The translations under genes and the position numbers were made by a program. A stretch of DNA of 64,000 nucleotides from a virus (Duplodnaviria > Caudoviricetes), in the IMG/VR virus record IMGVR_UViG_3300028833_000087, positions 32,001 to 96,000 of that record, one strand, 5' to 3'. This document shows, one piece after another, positions 58,833 through 64,000 of the stretch (positions are counted from its first letter, which is position 1; each line of letters begins with the position of its first letter). The notes under the pieces were generated by a model. That model ran no database searches, was not told where the DNA came from, and saw only the letters and a list, made by a program, of their open reading frames with translations.

Positions 58833-59930
58833 ATGAAAGTTCTGCTTATAGGTATTGGTGCTGCTGGTAATAAAGCTGTAGTTCAAGCTGTAGAAGATAA
58901 GGTTATTGCTGAAGAAGATTCTATTATTATTAATTCTACTGATAAAGATTTCCCAAAAGAATTTAATGGAAAGAAAATGATTTTATCTCCTAATAATCAG
59001 GGATGTGGTAAAGAAAGAGCAACTGCCTATGCTTTTACTAAAGCTCTAATTGAAAATGATACTCTTAATATTGATTGTTCTAAATATAATACAGTAATTG
59101 TTTGTGCATCTGTTGAAGGTGGTACAGGATCTGGTTCAGCTCCTTTGATTGCTAAATACTTTAAGCATGTCCATAATAGAAATGTACATGTGATTGCTTT
59201 TATTGGATTTGAAGATGATCCTAGAGGATTATCAAATACTGTAGAATTCTTTAAAGAATTAGAATCTGATCTTATTGTACAGACTATTAGAAATTCTTCT
59301 TTTATGAAACAAGCTGGTGGTAATAAGTTTAAAGCTGAAGAATTAGCTAATAAAGAAATGAGCAAGAGAATTAAGATTATTACTGGTCAGCAGTTTCTAA
59401 ATTCTGAACAGAATATTGATGATACTGATATTCTTAAAGTATCAAATACTGCAGGATATATGACTGTAGAAGAAAAGTATTTAGATAAGAATTTAGAAAC
59501 TGTAGAAGATTTTAATAAAGTGGTTAAGAATATGATTTATAATTCTCACTCTATTAAATCTAATTCTCCTAAGGCTATTCGTATTGGTGTTATTCTTAAT
59601 ATTGAACCTGGTTCAGAAGATGCTATTGATTATACATTTACTGATATCACTGAAGCATATGGTAATCCTTATGAAAAATATCTTCAGAAACAATGGGATG
59701 GTAATAAAGAATATATTCAGTGGATTGTATCTGGTATGCAGATGCCGTTAGATGAGATTAAAGAGATTTATGATAGATATCTTGCTGAATCTGATAAGGT
59801 ACAGAAAGACGCTGATACTTTCTTTAAAACAATGGAAACAATGCAGATGGATAGTAGTAATTCTAGATTCGATATGATTAAACCTGAAGAAAAGAAAATG
59901 AGCAAAGATGCATTTTTAAAGAATCTATAA
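58833..59930 (+). CDS. tubulin/FtsZ-family GTPase (PhuZ/TubZ-like)
   Basis: IGIGAAGNK, GCGK, tubulin signature GGTGSG, T7-like NIDDTD. Confidence 0.9.
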   Translation: MKVLLIGIGAAGNKAVVQAVEDKVIAEEDSIIINSTDKDFPKEFNGKKMILSPNNQGCGKERATAYAFTKALIENDTLNIDCSKYNTVIVCASVEGGTGSGSAPLIAKYFKHVHNRNVHVIAFIGFEDDPRGLSNTVEFFKELESDLIVQTIRNSSFMKQAGGNKFKAEELANKEMSKRIKIITGQQFLNSEQNIDDTDILKVSNTAGYMTVEEKYLDKNLETVEDFNKVVKNMIYNSHSIKSNSPKAIRIGVILNIEPGSEDAIDYTFTDITEAYGNPYEKYLQKQWDGNKEYIQWIVSGMQMPLDEIKEIYDRYLAESDKVQKDADTFFKTMETMQMDSSNSRFDMIKPEEKKMSKDAFLKNL

Positions 59931-59935
59931 TTAAA

Positions 59936-59961
59936 ACCCTGGACGAATATTCGTCCAGGGT
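59936..59961 (+). terminator. hairpin ending the tubulin gene
   Basis: accctggacgaa/ttcgtccagggt. Confidence 0.75.
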
Positions 59962-59978
59962 AATATATTAAATAATAA

Positions 59979-59987
59979 TATATTATA
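59979..59987 (+). promoter_or_regulatory. phage early-type promoter motif TATATTATA upstream of the pentamer array
   Basis: Same motif at 7815, 26946, 36155, 37164, 39901 and 49537; variants at 9670, 33886 and ~63175. Confidence 0.65.
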
Positions 59988-60010
59988 AATATGAAAGGAG
60001 GTTAATAATT

Positions 60011-60526
60011 TTAGTAATTGTGTAGTTGCGTACTACGATGTGCGGTTAGGCTAAGTATATGCTTTGTATTGTGCGGTAGAGCGATGTGGTGTATATGTAT
60101 AGTAGTGTATTATTTTAGTTCAGTAGAGTAAAGTAAATGTGAAGTGAAGTGCTGAAACTTGTAGTGTGGCATATGTAAGGTTTGACAATGTATTGTCGAG
60201 TAAATGTATAGTGAAGTATGGTAACGCCTAGTCAAGTACAGTAGTGTAAATGCATAGTCGAGTCCTGTGTCGTAAATGTATTGCCAGGTAGTATGGTGTA
60301 CTAGTATAGTCACTTACTGCTCAGTATAGTCAAGTAAATGTATTGTGACGTAGCATAACGTTATGTTCAGCGGTGTAAATGTATAGCGACGTAAAGTTTA
60401 GTTCTGTAAATGTATGGTAATACACATTGTGCCAATACGTGGTAATGTATTTGTAAAGTAAGGTATATTTAAATTACGTGAAGTAAATGTAAAGTAAGGT
60501 TGGGTAAAGTATTATTAAGTAAATAT
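60011..60526 (+). repeat. pentamer-periodic array, left arm: (NNNGY)4-8 blocks separated by AAATGT-like hexamers
   Basis: Example: aaatgt-atagt-gaagt-atggt-aacgc-ctagt-caagt-acagt-agtgt-aaatgc; about 14 blocks by manual parse. Confidence 0.9.
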
Positions 60527-60539
60527 TTAAAGAAAGGAG

Positions 60540-60845
60540 ATGGTGTTTATGCATGATATGAGAAGAAAGAAAGATCGAATTTGGCGTGAAGCCAAAGGAA
60601 TCTGCTCTCATTGTGGTCATAAGATCTATAGTATGAGAAATAAAACTTTAGATCATTTTATTCCAAAATCATGCTTCGGATCTTATGATGAGAGAAATTT
60701 ATTTGCGCTATGTAAAAGATGTAATGAAGAAAGGGGGAATGCTCTTGTAGGACTTGATTACTATGTATATGCGTCTGAAAACAAAAAGATGCAAGCATAT
60801 CAATACGGACTTGAATACAATACCAGAACATCTTCTATGCAGTAA
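60540..60845 (+). CDS. HNH endonuclease (McrA-like, two CxxC pairs) embedded in the array
   Basis: CSHCG...TLDHFIPKS..GS....NL..LCKRCN..RG; AAAGGAG RBS (start could be ATG 60549). Confidence 0.88.
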   Translation: MVFMHDMRRKKDRIWREAKGICSHCGHKIYSMRNKTLDHFIPKSCFGSYDERNLFALCKRCNEERGNALVGLDYYVYASENKKMQAYQYGLEYNTRTSSMQ

Positions 60846-61178
60846 ATGTATAGTGTAGTGAAGTGGAGCCCAGTAAATGCAAGTTAAAGTCTAGTATCAT
60901 ATGGTATAGTACAGTAAAGTATATGTAAAGTACGGTGTAGTAAAATACAGTAAATGTTTTGTAGGGTATTGTGCCATTTTGTGAAGTGATTGTATGGTGA
61001 AGTAGAGTACAGTAAATGTAAGGTGTAATGGAGTATGGTCTGGTAAAGTAGATGTGAGGTAACGCACAGTTTTGTGCTGTTGGATGATGTATATGTAAGG
61101 TGAGGCGTAGCAGTGCTGAGTCGTGTGGTGTAATGGCGAAGTGGTGCAGAGTCATGCTTTGTGATGTAAAGTAATTGT
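60839..61178 (+). repeat. pentamer-periodic array, right arm
   Basis: Example: atatgt-aaggt-gaggc-gtagc-agtgc-tgagt-cgtgt-ggtgt-aatggc; 9 blocks by manual parse. Confidence 0.9.
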
Positions 61179-61183
61179 TCGAT

Positions 61184-61223
61184 TATACAAGCATACTTAC
61201 AATTTAGTAAGTATGCTTGTATA
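61184..61223. terminator. 17-bp perfect hairpin closing the array
   Basis: tatacaagcatacttac / gtaagtatgcttgtata; there is no clear U tract, so it may be a processing or stability stem. Confidence 0.6.
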
Positions 61224-61244
61224 TATCCGAAAGGAGAATATTTA

Positions 61245-62138
61245 ATGAGTTTATTTGATAATTTTTTAAATCAAATAAAAGAAAGTCCTAAATCTGAAAA
61301 AGTTCATATTCCTCTATATAATACTATAGAGTATAAAATATCTACTTTAGTAGATATGATAAATAATGTAGATTCTATATCTGATGAAGAATTAAAGAAT
61401 GTAATCATAAGACAGCATAAAATGATATTAAATTATGATCCATTCTTATCTAATCAAGATACTAGAAGATCTGCATTAAAGTTATTTACAAATAAAAGGT
61501 TCCTTAATTTATTTCTTGAAGTTATTGGATTCTTGGATTTATCAAGAGAACAAGTTATTTGTATAAATAAACTTGCTTATGATTATTATGTATCTAATAA
61601 TAAAGAAAAAGAAATATCAGAACTATTATTATCTATTTGCTATCTTATCAATAATCAATTGATTATTCGACTTTCTGCAAAGATGGATATTACAAATGCG
61701 AGAGTTTTATCAATGATAGCTAACTCTACATTTAAAATAGAAAAGAAAGTTCATAGAGTAAATGTATTCTTTTTAAAGAAAGATACAAATAAAGAATTTA
61801 CTGTACAAGATTATATAGATATTTATATAATACTATTTGATCATTTTAGAGAATTATTTACATATTCAATGTTTGAAGCTTGGACAACTCCTATCACAGA
61901 TGAGTGTGCTCAATTACAATATGATAGATTCTTAAGAATGTCAGCAGCTTTAATAATTATGCTTGATAGTTTAACAAGTAAAGATATAGCGACAGTATTA
62001 AGAGAATATGGCTACACTTTGTCTATGATACCGAATAGTCCTATTAGATTTTCTATAAAGAATATGAAAAAGTATGATAGAATCAAAGATATAGCACATA
62101 GTCTTGAAGTAAATGAAAATGATATTTTAATTCCCTAA
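61245..62138 (+). CDS. hypothetical protein
   Basis: 297 aa with AAGGAG RBS; helical character. Confidence 0.72.
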   Translation: MSLFDNFLNQIKESPKSEKVHIPLYNTIEYKISTLVDMINNVDSISDEELKNVIIRQHKMILNYDPFLSNQDTRRSALKLFTNKRFLNLFLEVIGFLDLSREQVICINKLAYDYYVSNNKEKEISELLLSICYLINNQLIIRLSAKMDITNARVLSMIANSTFKIEKKVHRVNVFFLKKDTNKEFTVQDYIDIYIILFDHFRELFTYSMFEAWTTPITDECAQLQYDRFLRMSAALIIMLDSLTSKDIATVLREYGYTLSMIPNSPIRFSIKNMKKYDRIKDIAHSLEVNENDILIP

Positions 62139-62236
62139 GGAGAAATCCTTAGGGATGTTTTTATTTTTTCACAATCATATAATGATATATCTAATATCAC
62201 TTAACTAAATATAATTTAAGATTGGAGGATAGATAA

Positions 62237-63127
62237 ATGAAAATTAAAGCTTTTAAAGGATTTAATCCTGATATGACTTGTAAAAAGTTTAAATTTGTTC
62301 CTGGCGTGGAATATAGTATGGATGAAGATAAAATTAATTTGTGTACAAGAGGATTTCATTCTTGTATTATTCCTCTGCAATGTTTCAGCTATTACAAACC
62401 ATTAGCAGGTGTATTTCATGAAGTAGAAATAGATGGTGCTATGGAAATAGCAAAAGCTAATTCCAAGATAGTATCATCTAAAATTACTGTAGAAGAACAT
62501 GAATTAGATTCTAAAGAAATAGTTAATGAAACTTATGATTGTATTGAGATGCTTACAGGTGATACAGATTATCACGATACAATATTAGAAGATCTTTCAG
62601 AAAAATTAAAAAATTCTAAAATTAAAGGATCTATTAATGTTTCTAATGCTTATCGTTCTATAGCAGCATCTAATATAGATGATGATTTAGGAAATGGTTC
62701 TGTTATTAATACTGGCGGTAAATCTATTGCAGCATCTGTTGGTAATGATAAATGCGTTGCTACATCTGATACTAATTCTATAGCTGCATCTGTTGGTAAA
62801 ACAAATAATGTGATATCTGCTGGATCTAAATCTATCGCTGCATCTATAGGAGATTATAATTTGGTAACTGCAGGTAATCAGGGTGTAATTGCAGTATCTG
62901 TTGGTGAGCAATGTAAAGTTATAGCTGAAAAAGCAGGTTCTATGGCTATTATTACTACAGATTCTATTGGAAAAGGAGCTTTAAATTCTTATCTTGTATT
63001 TGTAAATACAGTTAAGAATGCTGATGAAACTACTATAGATAAAGTTATTACTATATTTATTGATGGTTCAAAATATCGTCCAAATACTTGGTATAAATTA
63101 GATAATGGTGTTGTAAAAGAAGCATAA
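62237..63127 (+). CDS. phage protein with KAFKGF/GFHSC N-terminal domain and ~11-aa SIAAS repeats (probable beta-solenoid)
   Basis: KAFKGF..DMTC, LC.RGFHSC..PL.CF.YY; repeated SIAAS(V/I)G; YRPNTWYKL. Confidence 0.72.
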   Translation: MKIKAFKGFNPDMTCKKFKFVPGVEYSMDEDKINLCTRGFHSCIIPLQCFSYYKPLAGVFHEVEIDGAMEIAKANSKIVSSKITVEEHELDSKEIVNETYDCIEMLTGDTDYHDTILEDLSEKLKNSKIKGSINVSNAYRSIAASNIDDDLGNGSVINTGGKSIAASVGNDKCVATSDTNSIAASVGKTNNVISAGSKSIAASIGDYNLVTAGNQGVIAVSVGEQCKVIAEKAGSMAIITTDSIGKGALNSYLVFVNTVKNADETTIDKVITIFIDGSKYRPNTWYKLDNGVVKEA

Positions 63128-63254
63128 TATATAAGCCCTAGAGGAGAAATCCTCTAGGGTAAATTTTTTCATAATTATATATAATATATGTGTAAAATAG
63201 TTTTGATTGTATCCCTTATACAATCATTAAAAATCATTTAAGGAGGAAACAAAA

Positions 63255-64000
63255 ATGGTTGAAGAACAGGTAATGAAGGTGCGTTTAACGTTCCTGCAGG
63301 ATGTGCTGGGAACACAGCCCACAGACTCAAAGATCTATGAGTCCTTTCTGGCTACCAAGATGAGAAAAGAAATGGAGAAATCTGGGTACAAGGAAGAGAA
63401 GATCGATGAGAAGATCAATAAGGGTATGGAAGCACTTCCGAACAACGAAGATGGGGAATTCTATCGTGATGGCGTTACGGTATTTCCTCGTCTGAAGATC
63501 AAGGAAACCGGAGAAGAGATCCCGGCTATTGAAGGATACTTACTCAAAGGATTCTTCAAGAATGCATGCTGGGCATGTGCAAAAGCAGATGGATTGTCCG
63601 CAGAACTGTCAGCTTACAAAAAGTACATTGACAATATGACTGATGTAAATGAGATCAGTCCTATCATTGTCAACGACGATGTAAAGAAATACATGGAGGA
63701 GCATAAAGGAACTCTTCCTTTATTTCAGCGTCCGATCAGAATTTCCGACAGAAATGGTGAGCGTGTAGCGCTTGCTTGCTCAGAGTATGTACCGGCTGGT
63801 AGCTATATCGATTTTGAAATCACAGCTATGTCTGAAGAGGCATTGAATTTCGTTATCGAATGGCTCAACTACGGCAAGCATAATGGACTTTGCTGCTGGA
63901 GAAATTCTGGTAAAGGAAAGTTTGACTGGATCGATCTTGATCTTGGTGCTAAGAGGGAGATTAATCCCAAAGCAATCAAGAAAAAAGGTAAGAAAAAGAA
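63255..64000 (+). CDS. Cas7/Csm3-like RAMP-fold protein (runs off the window end; absent from the ORF track)
   Basis: AGGAGG RBS, at least 248 open codons; KVRLTFLQDVLG, PAIEGYLLKGFFKNA, SEYVPAGSYIDFEI, glycine-rich loop GLCCWRNSGKGKF. Confidence 0.8.
   Translation, partial: MVEEQVMKVRLTFLQDVLGTQPTDSKIYESFLATKMRKEMEKSGYKEEKIDEKINKGMEALPNNEDGEFYRDGVTVFPRLKIKETGEEIPAIEGYLLKGFFKNACWACAKADGLSAELSAYKKYIDNMTDVNEISPIIVNDDVKKYMEEHKGTLPLFQRPIRISDRNGERVALACSEYVPAGSYIDFEITAMSEEALNFVIEWLNYGKHNGLCCWRNSGKGKFDWIDLDLGAKREINPKAIKKKGKKK

What the first reader, a model, noticed from the sequence alone, without database searches (positions are those of the whole stretch)
59979..64000. Candidate non-CRISPR RNA-guided system: pentamer-coded array, embedded HNH nuclease and solo Cas7-like RAMP
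Seen: a transcription unit (TATATTATA motif 59979, closing hairpin 61184) containing ~23 blocks of NNNGY pentamers, an HNH gene inside it, and ~2 kb downstream a RAMP-motif gene with a similar promoter. No cas1/2/3/5/6/10 gene or CRISPR repeat-spacer array is present in the window. Established: Cas7 RAMPs polymerise on RNA with a fixed per-subunit footprint and flip out periodic bases. Inference: each pentamer binds one RAMP subunit, the invariant GY is the protein handle, and the variable NN(N) bases spell a gapped target code. The hexamers would delimit individual guides and the HNH could be the effector. I recall, but cannot verify here, recent reports of viral RAMPs paired with alternating GGY/NN repeat RNAs (VIPR-type). 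This locus would differ in its variable third base, hexamer punctuation and embedded nuclease.
Basis: partly seen in the sequence, partly recalled or inferred. Interest (0 to 1): 0.96.

Follow-up and report, generated by a model that had tools for sequence, protein, structure and literature searches.

The report
Phage VIPR guide arrays plus RAMP
This large gut or rumen phage carries a VIPR system, a CRISPR-related RNA-guided DNA silencer first described in 2026 preprints, so it is a well-supported new example of a known kind and not a new kind of system.

Summary
Two arrays of GY-NNN pentamers (window 60020-60525 and 60846-61175) flank a 101-aa HNH gene. A third array lies just past the window end. 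Hexamers (mostly GTAAAT or GTATAT) cut the arrays into about 35 blocks of 4-8 pentamers (z = 26-40 against shuffles).

The gene at 63255 encodes a 254-aa protein. It has a confident Cas7/Csm3-like RAMP fold and a C-terminal G-loop.

155 of 160 homologous loci in viral and bacterial genomes carry a period-5 array beside the gene. The background rate is 1 such segment in 0.9 Mb. The 121-kb record holds no cas1 and no CRISPR array.

This matches the published VIPR systems (bioRxiv 10.64898/2026.04.26.720920).

Syntenic relatives have one uninterrupted array and no HNH. The HNH gene is therefore most likely an insertion at a block boundary, not a core effector.

No natural target was found, and the reading rule (two or three bases per pentamer) stays open. 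Sequence similarity to the type II SUSP1 Vipr is only marginal.

This scan has already found and followed up such loci in more than 90 other genomes. Verdict: new member of a known kind.

The parts
59936..59961 (+). GC-rich hairpin closing the upstream tubulin/PhuZ-like gene. It is the left boundary of the locus.
   Evidence: Read directly. The terminator scan lists it on the minus strand, 11 pairs.
59979..59987 (+). It is present, but its function is not shown.
   Evidence: Sequence. A sigma-70 type consensus scan of the region shows no enrichment, 20 sites against 23.9 expected.
60020..60525 (+). vrRNA array 1: 15 blocks, about 97 GY-NNN units, hexamer-punctuated (GTAAAT or GTATAT). It is C-poor and unstructured.
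   Evidence: z 40.5. Fold z 0.07 for 60200-60333.
60540..60845 (+). 101-aa minimal HNH nuclease gene with its own RBS. It sits between two GTAAAT delimiters, and its stop codon TAA is part of the next delimiter. It is probably an inserted cassette.
   Evidence: Pfam HNH E 3e-8. PHROG HNH families. Absent from the syntenic loci L092 and L094. Single copy in the genome.
60846..61175 (+). vrRNA array 2: 9 blocks, about 64 units. It continues array 1 in the same strand and grammar.
   Evidence: z 26.3.
61178..61227 (+). Stem-loop of about 23 base pairs that closes arrays 1 and 2. It has no T-run after it.
   Evidence: -26.5 kcal/mol, z -7.0.
61245..62138 (+). ORF297, an all-alpha helical-repeat protein of unknown function. 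It is conserved between array and vipr in the closest relatives, but it is also found on more than 200 large phage contigs. It is probably a phage backbone gene, and only possibly an accessory.
62237..63127 (+). DUF7666 / phrog_4433 protein. It is a variable neighbour, absent from the closest relatives, but seen near vipr in 13 other loci.
63255..64000 (+). vipr-like RAMP gene (254 aa; the stop is at window-extended 64019). Its order of parts is beta1, alpha-bundle, RRM helix, thumb hairpin (residues 156-179), G-loop (GLCCWRNSGKGKF), Lys-rich tail. Past the window end it is followed by a terminator hairpin and array 3 (L001:2349-2718, 11 blocks), which is closed by a 17-bp terminator.

Best explanation
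The locus is a VIPR (Viral Interference Programmable Repeat) system of a large tubulin-encoding phage.

**Inferred mechanism, from the published SUSP1 and P. fulva work.** The + strand arrays are transcribed into C-poor, unstructured RNA. One copy of the 254-aa Vipr RAMP protein binds each pentamer. Its thumb and G-loop hold the G-Y dinucleotide and present the variable bases for gapped pairing with double-stranded DNA of a rival element or of the host. Binding blocks transcription.

**Array grammar.** The extra base at each hexamer shifts the register by one. It marks the border between successive short guides of 4-8 pentamers, which is the 'staggered array' form.

**The HNH gene.** It sits in a guide slot between two delimiters. 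It is most likely a later insertion that rides on the array's transcription. It may or may not add DNA cutting to the system.

**Shown here:** the arrays and their grammar, the RAMP fold, the protein-array linkage in relatives, and the absence of cas genes and CRISPR arrays.

**Inferred only:** transcription, processing, protein binding, the pairing rule, and silencing.
For: - **Arrays:**
- **G-loop:** GxGQWRNSGKGRF is nearly invariant in the family. It aligns with GxGDWRPRFGRF of SUSP1 Vipr, whose W178 and R179 hold G2 and Y3. The residues that read G1 in SUSP1 (H17, D177) correspond here to an invariant Gly and to Gln or Cys, which fits the loss of the first G of GGY.
- **Linkage:** 77 of 80 IMG/VR loci, 78 of 80 bacterial-genome loci and 3 of 3 metagenome loci have a period-5 array beside the gene. 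The background is 1 segment in 0.9 Mb.
- **Same grammar in relatives:** the hexamer-punctuated GY-NNN grammar recurs in L002, L076 and L092-L094. One relative (L025) carries classic GGY-NN repeats.
- **Published description:** YNNNG repeats, staggered arrays and HNH accessory proteins are all reported.
- **No CRISPR context:** no cas1, no Pfam RAMP, no CRISPR array.
Against: - Sequence similarity to the experimentally studied type II Vipr is marginal. Profile-profile E is 1e-3 and probability 22%. The family profile does not find PDB 36pp at E<=10, while it does find the type VII Cas7 G-loop at E 2e-4. Placement inside the published Vipr clade is therefore not shown.
- No conserved structured 3' tail follows each guide.
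- The guides are much shorter than the 9-16 repeats of SUSP1.
- No natural target was found under any rule.
- There are no expression data.
Confidence: 0.88

Rival explanations
1. The locus is a distinct RNA-guided nuclease system. The embedded HNH is the dedicated effector, recruited by the RAMP filament to cut the target.
For: - The HNH catalytic motifs are intact (read directly in the translation; Pfam match).
- It lies in the array's orientation and exactly between two delimiters.
- The VIPR paper reports HNH-domain accessory proteins and nuclease-bearing types III-V.
- HNH fused to Cascade exists in CRISPR (8yb6, listed).
Against: - HNH is absent from the closest syntenic relatives, which have one uninterrupted array.
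- Only 1 weak HNH-like hit turned up in the 163 other loci.
- The 101-aa protein has no extra domain that could dock on a filament.
Confidence: 0.1
2. The system is VIPR-like but uses a different code. All three variable bases of each pentamer pair with the target, which would be contiguous triplets or 3 bases plus 1 skipped. The published rule is 2 bases plus 1 skipped.
For: - All three N positions are about equally variable.
- The guides have only 4-8 units. Two-base reading would then give only 8-16 specified bases.
- The residues that read G1 in SUSP1 are replaced.
Against: - No exact IMG/VR match for 3+1 reading of two guides.
- Among NNx hits the third base agrees only at chance level, so there is no contiguous-triplet match for four guides.
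- The stop-triplet depletion test was not significant, p = 0.13.
- All of these tests had low power.
Confidence: 0.2
3. The periodic DNA is not a guide array. It would be a structural or regulatory repeat, for example protein-binding sites on DNA or a decayed coding repeat, that merely lies near a RAMP-like gene.
For: No transcription data exist, and no targets were found.
Against: - The arrays are strand-specific and C-poor, with a fixed G-Y handle.
- 158 of 163 independent loci keep an array beside the gene while its N bases differ.
- The published biochemistry was done on related arrays.
Confidence: 0.02

Closest known systems
VIPR systems with alternative YNNNG repeats and 'staggered' vrRNA arrays (bioRxiv 10.64898/2026.04.26.720920, Methods 'VIPR type classification' and fig. 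S18 legend)
   Same: Both have a lone RAMP gene in a phage, with no cas genes. Both have 5-nt tandem repeats with a conserved G-Y and variable bases. In both, successive guides are offset by one base. Arrays lie on both sides of the gene.
   Different: Which of the seven published types this family belongs to could not be checked, because the figures and data tables are not held. This locus has three arrays with about 35 short guides, an HNH gene inside the array, and a GT handle where its gut-prophage relatives have GC.
Type II VIPR of Escherichia phage SUSP1 (Vipr YP_009199429, PDB 36pp; vrRNAs of 9-16 YNNGG repeats plus a pseudoknot tail)
   Same: Same order of domains: beta1, alpha-bundle, RRM, thumb, G-loop. 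The W-R pair in the G-loop is shared. Both have period-5 arrays flanking the gene on its own strand.
   Different: About 15-19% identity, with profile-profile E of only 1e-3. The handle is GY where SUSP1 has GGY. There is no 3' tail per guide and the guides are shorter. There is no vap1 homolog. This protein has a Lys-rich C-terminal tail.
Csm3/Cas7 backbone subunits of type III (and type VII) CRISPR effector complexes
   Different: There is no CRISPR repeat-spacer array, no Cas10, Cas5, Cas6 or Cas1, a 5-nt footprint where these have 6 nt, and a viral genome.
Free-standing phage HNH endonucleases (homing-type or accessory)
   Same: Minimal HNH with two CxxC pairs. It is present in one phage and absent at the same site in relatives.
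   Different: It is a single copy in the record and has no DNA-binding domain. It is inserted precisely between two array delimiters and so is probably expressed from the array transcript.

Membership tests
VIPR system | Vipr protein: a RAMP fold with a single RRM core, glycine-rich loop, thumb and alpha-helical bundle | tested here: met
   AF2 model pLDDT 89.6. Foldseek and VIA-align top hits are Csm3/Cas7. G-loop motif. Helices 25-59 follow beta1, and the hairpin at 156-179 is the thumb.
VIPR system | Tandem pentanucleotide repeats with a conserved G/Y handle and hypervariable bases, beside the gene | tested here: met
   Three arrays, 199 pentamers, z 26-40. YNNNG is listed as a published variant.
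VIPR system | Protein-array linkage conserved across homologs | tested here: met
   77/80, 78/80 and 3/3 loci, against 1 segment in 0.9 Mb of background.
VIPR system | Non-CRISPR context (no CRISPR array, no other cas genes), mostly viral or proviral | tested here: met
   IMG/VR virus record. No Cas1, no Pfam RAMP, no CRISPR-like repeats in 121 kb. The record is only about 49% complete.
VIPR system | Placement in the published Vipr clade, that is, sequence homology to characterised Vipr | tested here: inconclusive
   hhalign against the SUSP1 family gives E 1e-3 and probability 22% over the full length. hmmsearch cross-hits are at E about 1e-3. The profile misses PDB 36pp but hits type VII Cas7. 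The paper's data tables are not held.
VIPR system | vrRNAs expressed, processed and bound by Vipr | not testable with these tools
   No RNA data. Only flanking hairpins and lack of internal structure were seen.
VIPR system | Gapped target recognition (1-nt skip rule) with natural targets in rival elements | tested here: inconclusive
   Local 1-Mb searches show no excess over shuffles. Eight IMG/VR scans gave only chance-like hits.
VIPR system | Accessory vap gene | tested here: inconclusive
   HNH is not conserved. ORF297 is conserved in the clade but is widespread in large phages, and its fold is uninformative.
Type II VIPR (SUSP1-like) | GGY/NN repeats, 9-16 per vrRNA, each followed by a conserved structured 3' tail | tested here: not met
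   The handle is GY only. Blocks have 4-8 units, separated by one extra base. No tails and no Rfam match.
CRISPR-Cas class 1 (type III-like) | Repeat-spacer array plus Cas10/Cas5/Cas6 and adaptation genes | tested here: not met
   PADLOC and NCBIfam find nothing for the RAMP.

The most novel reading that the evidence does not exclude
In this clade each Vipr protomer may read three bases per pentamer. That would be a gapped code different from the published two-plus-one rule. The HNH cassette occupies a guide slot, so the same processing that releases the guides may release a nuclease mRNA. A silencing system would then become a cutting one.
Probability: 0.15. Interest if true: 0.65.

Novelty: new member of a known kind. 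Interest (0 to 1): 0.3.

Why it matters
This locus adds a well-measured natural example of VIPR, with about 35 guides, in a large tubulin-encoding phage of an anaerobic gut or rumen community.

The GY-NNN, hexamer-staggered grammar is the common form across hundreds of gut prophages. The pairing rule for this form, two or three bases read per protomer, is not stated in the text of the three preprints that I could read.

An HNH gene sitting in a guide slot is a natural experiment on how accessory nucleases join such systems.

None of this changes the basic picture already published.

Tried and rejected
**Target search**
- All guides of 6 or more units were searched against the own genome plus 83 related loci (1 Mb, arrays masked) under six rules: NNx, xNN, NNN with 0 or 1 skip, NN0 and NNxx. 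None gave an excess over unit-shuffled guides.
- 388 unique guides from all loci were searched against 1.8 Mb (both strands counted). There was no excess for any rule, including the 65 guides of 9 or more units.
- Four guides were scanned for exact matches in IMG/VR under NNx. They gave 6, 23, 21 and 59 hits, as expected by chance. Third-base agreement was at chance level.
- One cluster stood out. Guide 64324, read antisense, spells FIREIYPF next to the Exo II motif of a T7-like DNA polymerase on 11 contigs, with the skipped base at the wobble position. I rejected it as a target for three reasons: the contigs are far more GC-rich than this 29% GC phage, none of the other 26 guides tested converges on them, and the flanking units do not extend the match.
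- The 3+1 rule for two guides, and a 9-unit guide of L076, gave 0 hits.
- A test for stop-triplet depletion in NNN was not significant, p = 0.13.

**Other dead ends**
- Rfam shows no ribozyme or known RNA in the locus.
- The sigma-70 type promoter scan was not enriched.
- The first metagenome scan found nothing.
Full report
**1. What is in the sequence**

The window is bases 32001-96000 of a 121-kb IMG/VR virus record, estimated at about 49% complete.

Between the terminator hairpin of a tubulin/PhuZ-like gene (58833-59930; Pfam Tubulin) and a strong hairpin at 61178-61227 lies non-coding DNA with a pronounced 5-nt period. The lag-5 identity is 0.41-0.48, against about 0.25 at other lags.

A parse that follows the G-[T/C] dinucleotide gives these figures:
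- Array 1 (60020-60525) has 97 units and array 2 (60846-61175) has 64 units.
- 85-90% of the units are GYNNN.
- The arrays are interrupted every 4-8 units by a single 6-nt unit. It is GTAAAT 11 times, GTATAT 10 times, and a variant otherwise.
- The first pentamer after a hexamer is biased towards GTATA, GTAAG or GTAAA.

The parse scores lie 26-40 sd above dinucleotide shuffles. The arrays are C-poor, with 3-10% C at each phase. They have no significant secondary structure, z = 0.07.

A genome-wide scan finds a third array of the same grammar. It has 11 blocks and lies directly after the RAMP gene's terminator, just past the window end (L001:2349-2718). A 17-bp terminator closes it.

In total there are about 35 blocks and 199 pentamers.

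**2. The protein**

The ORF at 63255 runs 19 nt past the window and encodes 254 aa (P0001).

- Sequence searches name nothing. Pfam, PHROGs, NCBIfam, PADLOC and a PDB sequence search all come up empty.
- The family is large. There are 111 clusters at 90% identity in one search, and 1131 representatives at E<=1e-3 in the exhaustive search. Most members are about 200 aa.
- The alignment shows a nearly invariant C-terminal GxGQWRNSGKGRF.
- The AF2 model is confident, pLDDT 89.6 and pTM 0.84.
- The Foldseek PDB rows listed are all Csm3-type chains of type III complexes, apart from one type VII complex (best E 1e-7, probability 1.0).
- In BFVD the best match is a 39%-identical phage protein that UniProt already names 'RAMP superfamily protein'.
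- The order of elements is beta1, helical bundle (25-59), RRM helix, long hairpin (156-179), helix, G-loop, last strand. This is the order described for Vipr.

**3. Linkage**

| Collection | Loci with a period-5 array beside the gene |
|---|---|
| IMG/VR (80 best of 570 confirmed stretches) | 77 of 80 |
| Bacterial species genomes (80 best of 161 confirmed stretches) | 78 of 80 |
| Metagenome loci closest to this one | 3 of 3 |
| Background: unrelated DNA | 1 segment in 0.9 Mb |

The bacterial hosts are mostly gut Clostridia and Coriobacteriia.

The grammar is shared across the family: G-Y handle, three variable bases, hexamer or 11-mer punctuation. Large phages (L002, L076, L092-L094) use GT. 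Gut prophages use GC. One locus (L025) also has classic GGYNN tracts.

**4. What is known**

Three 2026 preprints describe VIPR.

- A Vipr RAMP polymerises one protomer per pentamer on vrRNAs of alternating GGY/NN.
- The thumb and G-loop sequester GGY. The NN pairs with dsDNA while every third target base is skipped. The result is transcriptional silencing of rival elements.
- The first paper lists alternative NNNGG, YNNNG and NNNNG repeats. It also lists 'staggered arrays' whose vrRNAs are offset by 1 nt, hammerhead-interspersed arrays, seven types, and accessory proteins that include HNH domains.

GY/NNN is YNNNG read in another register, and the hexamer is a +1 stagger.

**5. Relation to the studied type II system**

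I located the SUSP1 locus in NC_028808 by its GGYNN tracts. I then compared families.

- The profile-profile alignment is end to end but weak, E 1e-3 and probability 22%.
- The G-loops align. W and R are kept; in SUSP1, W178 and R179 hold G2 and Y3.
- The residues that read G1 in SUSP1 (H17, D177) align with an invariant Gly and with Gln or Cys. This fits a handle that has lost its first G (inference).
- The family profile does not retrieve the SUSP1 Vipr chain 36pp from the PDB sequences, but it does retrieve the G-loop of type VII Cas7.

Membership by architecture is therefore met. Membership by phylogeny is not shown.

**6. The HNH and the other genes**

The HNH (101 aa) has an intact D-H...N...N motif and two CxxC pairs, read directly in the translation; Pfam HNH matches at E 3e-8. 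It has its own RBS. It lies between two GTAAAT delimiters, and its stop codon is part of the right-hand one.

The related large-phage fragments L092 and L094 have Vipr at 42-45% identity, tubulin at 61-65% and ORF297 at 48-50%. Their gene order is tubulin, one uninterrupted array, ORF297, vipr. They have no HNH and no DUF7666.

Among the 163 other loci, only one has a weak HNH-like hit. The HNH is single-copy in the record. I read it as an insertion into the array, with a small chance that it is an optional accessory nuclease.

ORF297 is an all-alpha repeat protein with no informative fold match. It occurs on more than 200 large phage contigs, so it is probably a backbone gene.

The vipr gene and array 3 are GC-rich for this genome, 42% against 29%, which puts vipr in the top 1.4% of windows. 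This hints at horizontal acquisition.

**7. Targets and the code**

Nothing convincing was found; details are under Tried and rejected. Whether two or three bases per pentamer are read remains open.

**8. Verdict**

- The core interpretation is supported.
- The novelty claim and the HNH-effector idea are not supported.
- This is a new member of a known, very recently described kind.
- This scan has already followed up similar loci in many other genomes.

Noticed in passing
window 58833-59930: A tubulin/PhuZ-like gene lies directly upstream of the arrays. The same order (tubulin, array, ORF297, vipr) is kept in the metagenome loci L092 and L094, so the VIPR locus sits at a fixed place in a group of large phages.
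   Followed up: partly
window 61245-62138: ORF297 is an all-alpha helical-repeat protein with no family name. It has more than 200 homologs, on phage contigs of up to 273 kb. On one contig its homolog is 89% identical while the neighbouring Vipr is only 60% identical, so Vipr evolves much faster than this neighbour.
   Followed up: partly
window 62237-63127: A DUF7666 / phrog_4433 protein also lies within a few kb of vipr in 13 other loci (L004, L018, L025, L029, L042, L044, L047, L051, L060, L067, L072, L077, L281). It is absent from the closest relatives. I could not tell a possible loose association from chance.
   Followed up: partly
window 63255-64000 and L001:2349-2718: The vipr gene (42.5% GC) and array 3 (41.8% GC) stand out from the 29.3% GC genome, which suggests recent horizontal acquisition. 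The Lys-rich C-terminal tail (KKKGKKKKADDEE) is seen in the large-phage subclade. The family's median tail is 10 residues, though 32 of 191 members have tails of 30 aa or more that I did not examine.
   Followed up: partly
L002:7076-11351 (IMGVR_UViG_3300035520_000350, 243 kb): A 4.2-kb GT-handle array with the same hexamer grammar, which would hold roughly 800 pentamers by its length. It is by far the largest array seen among the relatives.
   Followed up: no
L025:2180-3190: One relative carries classic GGYNN tracts without hexamers next to hexamer-punctuated GYNNN blocks in the same locus. This links the two array styles to one protein family.
   Followed up: partly
L104:6353-8119 and 10 similar IMG/VR contigs: Guide 64324, decoded two bases in three, exactly matches (antisense) the conserved FIREIYPF stretch after the Exo II motif of a T7-like DNA polymerase, with the skipped base at the wobble position. 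I judged it a chance match.
   Followed up: yes
G000:C1:106150-106620 (outside the window): Six tandem 78-nt repeats encode a 26-aa repeat (KFTAEQMREIREGLEEGLNVSIY...). This is a coding repeat, not a CRISPR array.
   Followed up: partly
L001:2910-3548, minus strand: The protein has a CxxxCxxC motif (GCPHHCKGCHNP) that I recognise as typical of anaerobic ribonucleotide reductase activase (NrdG). No family search was run on it. If right, it fits a strictly anaerobic host.
   Followed up: no
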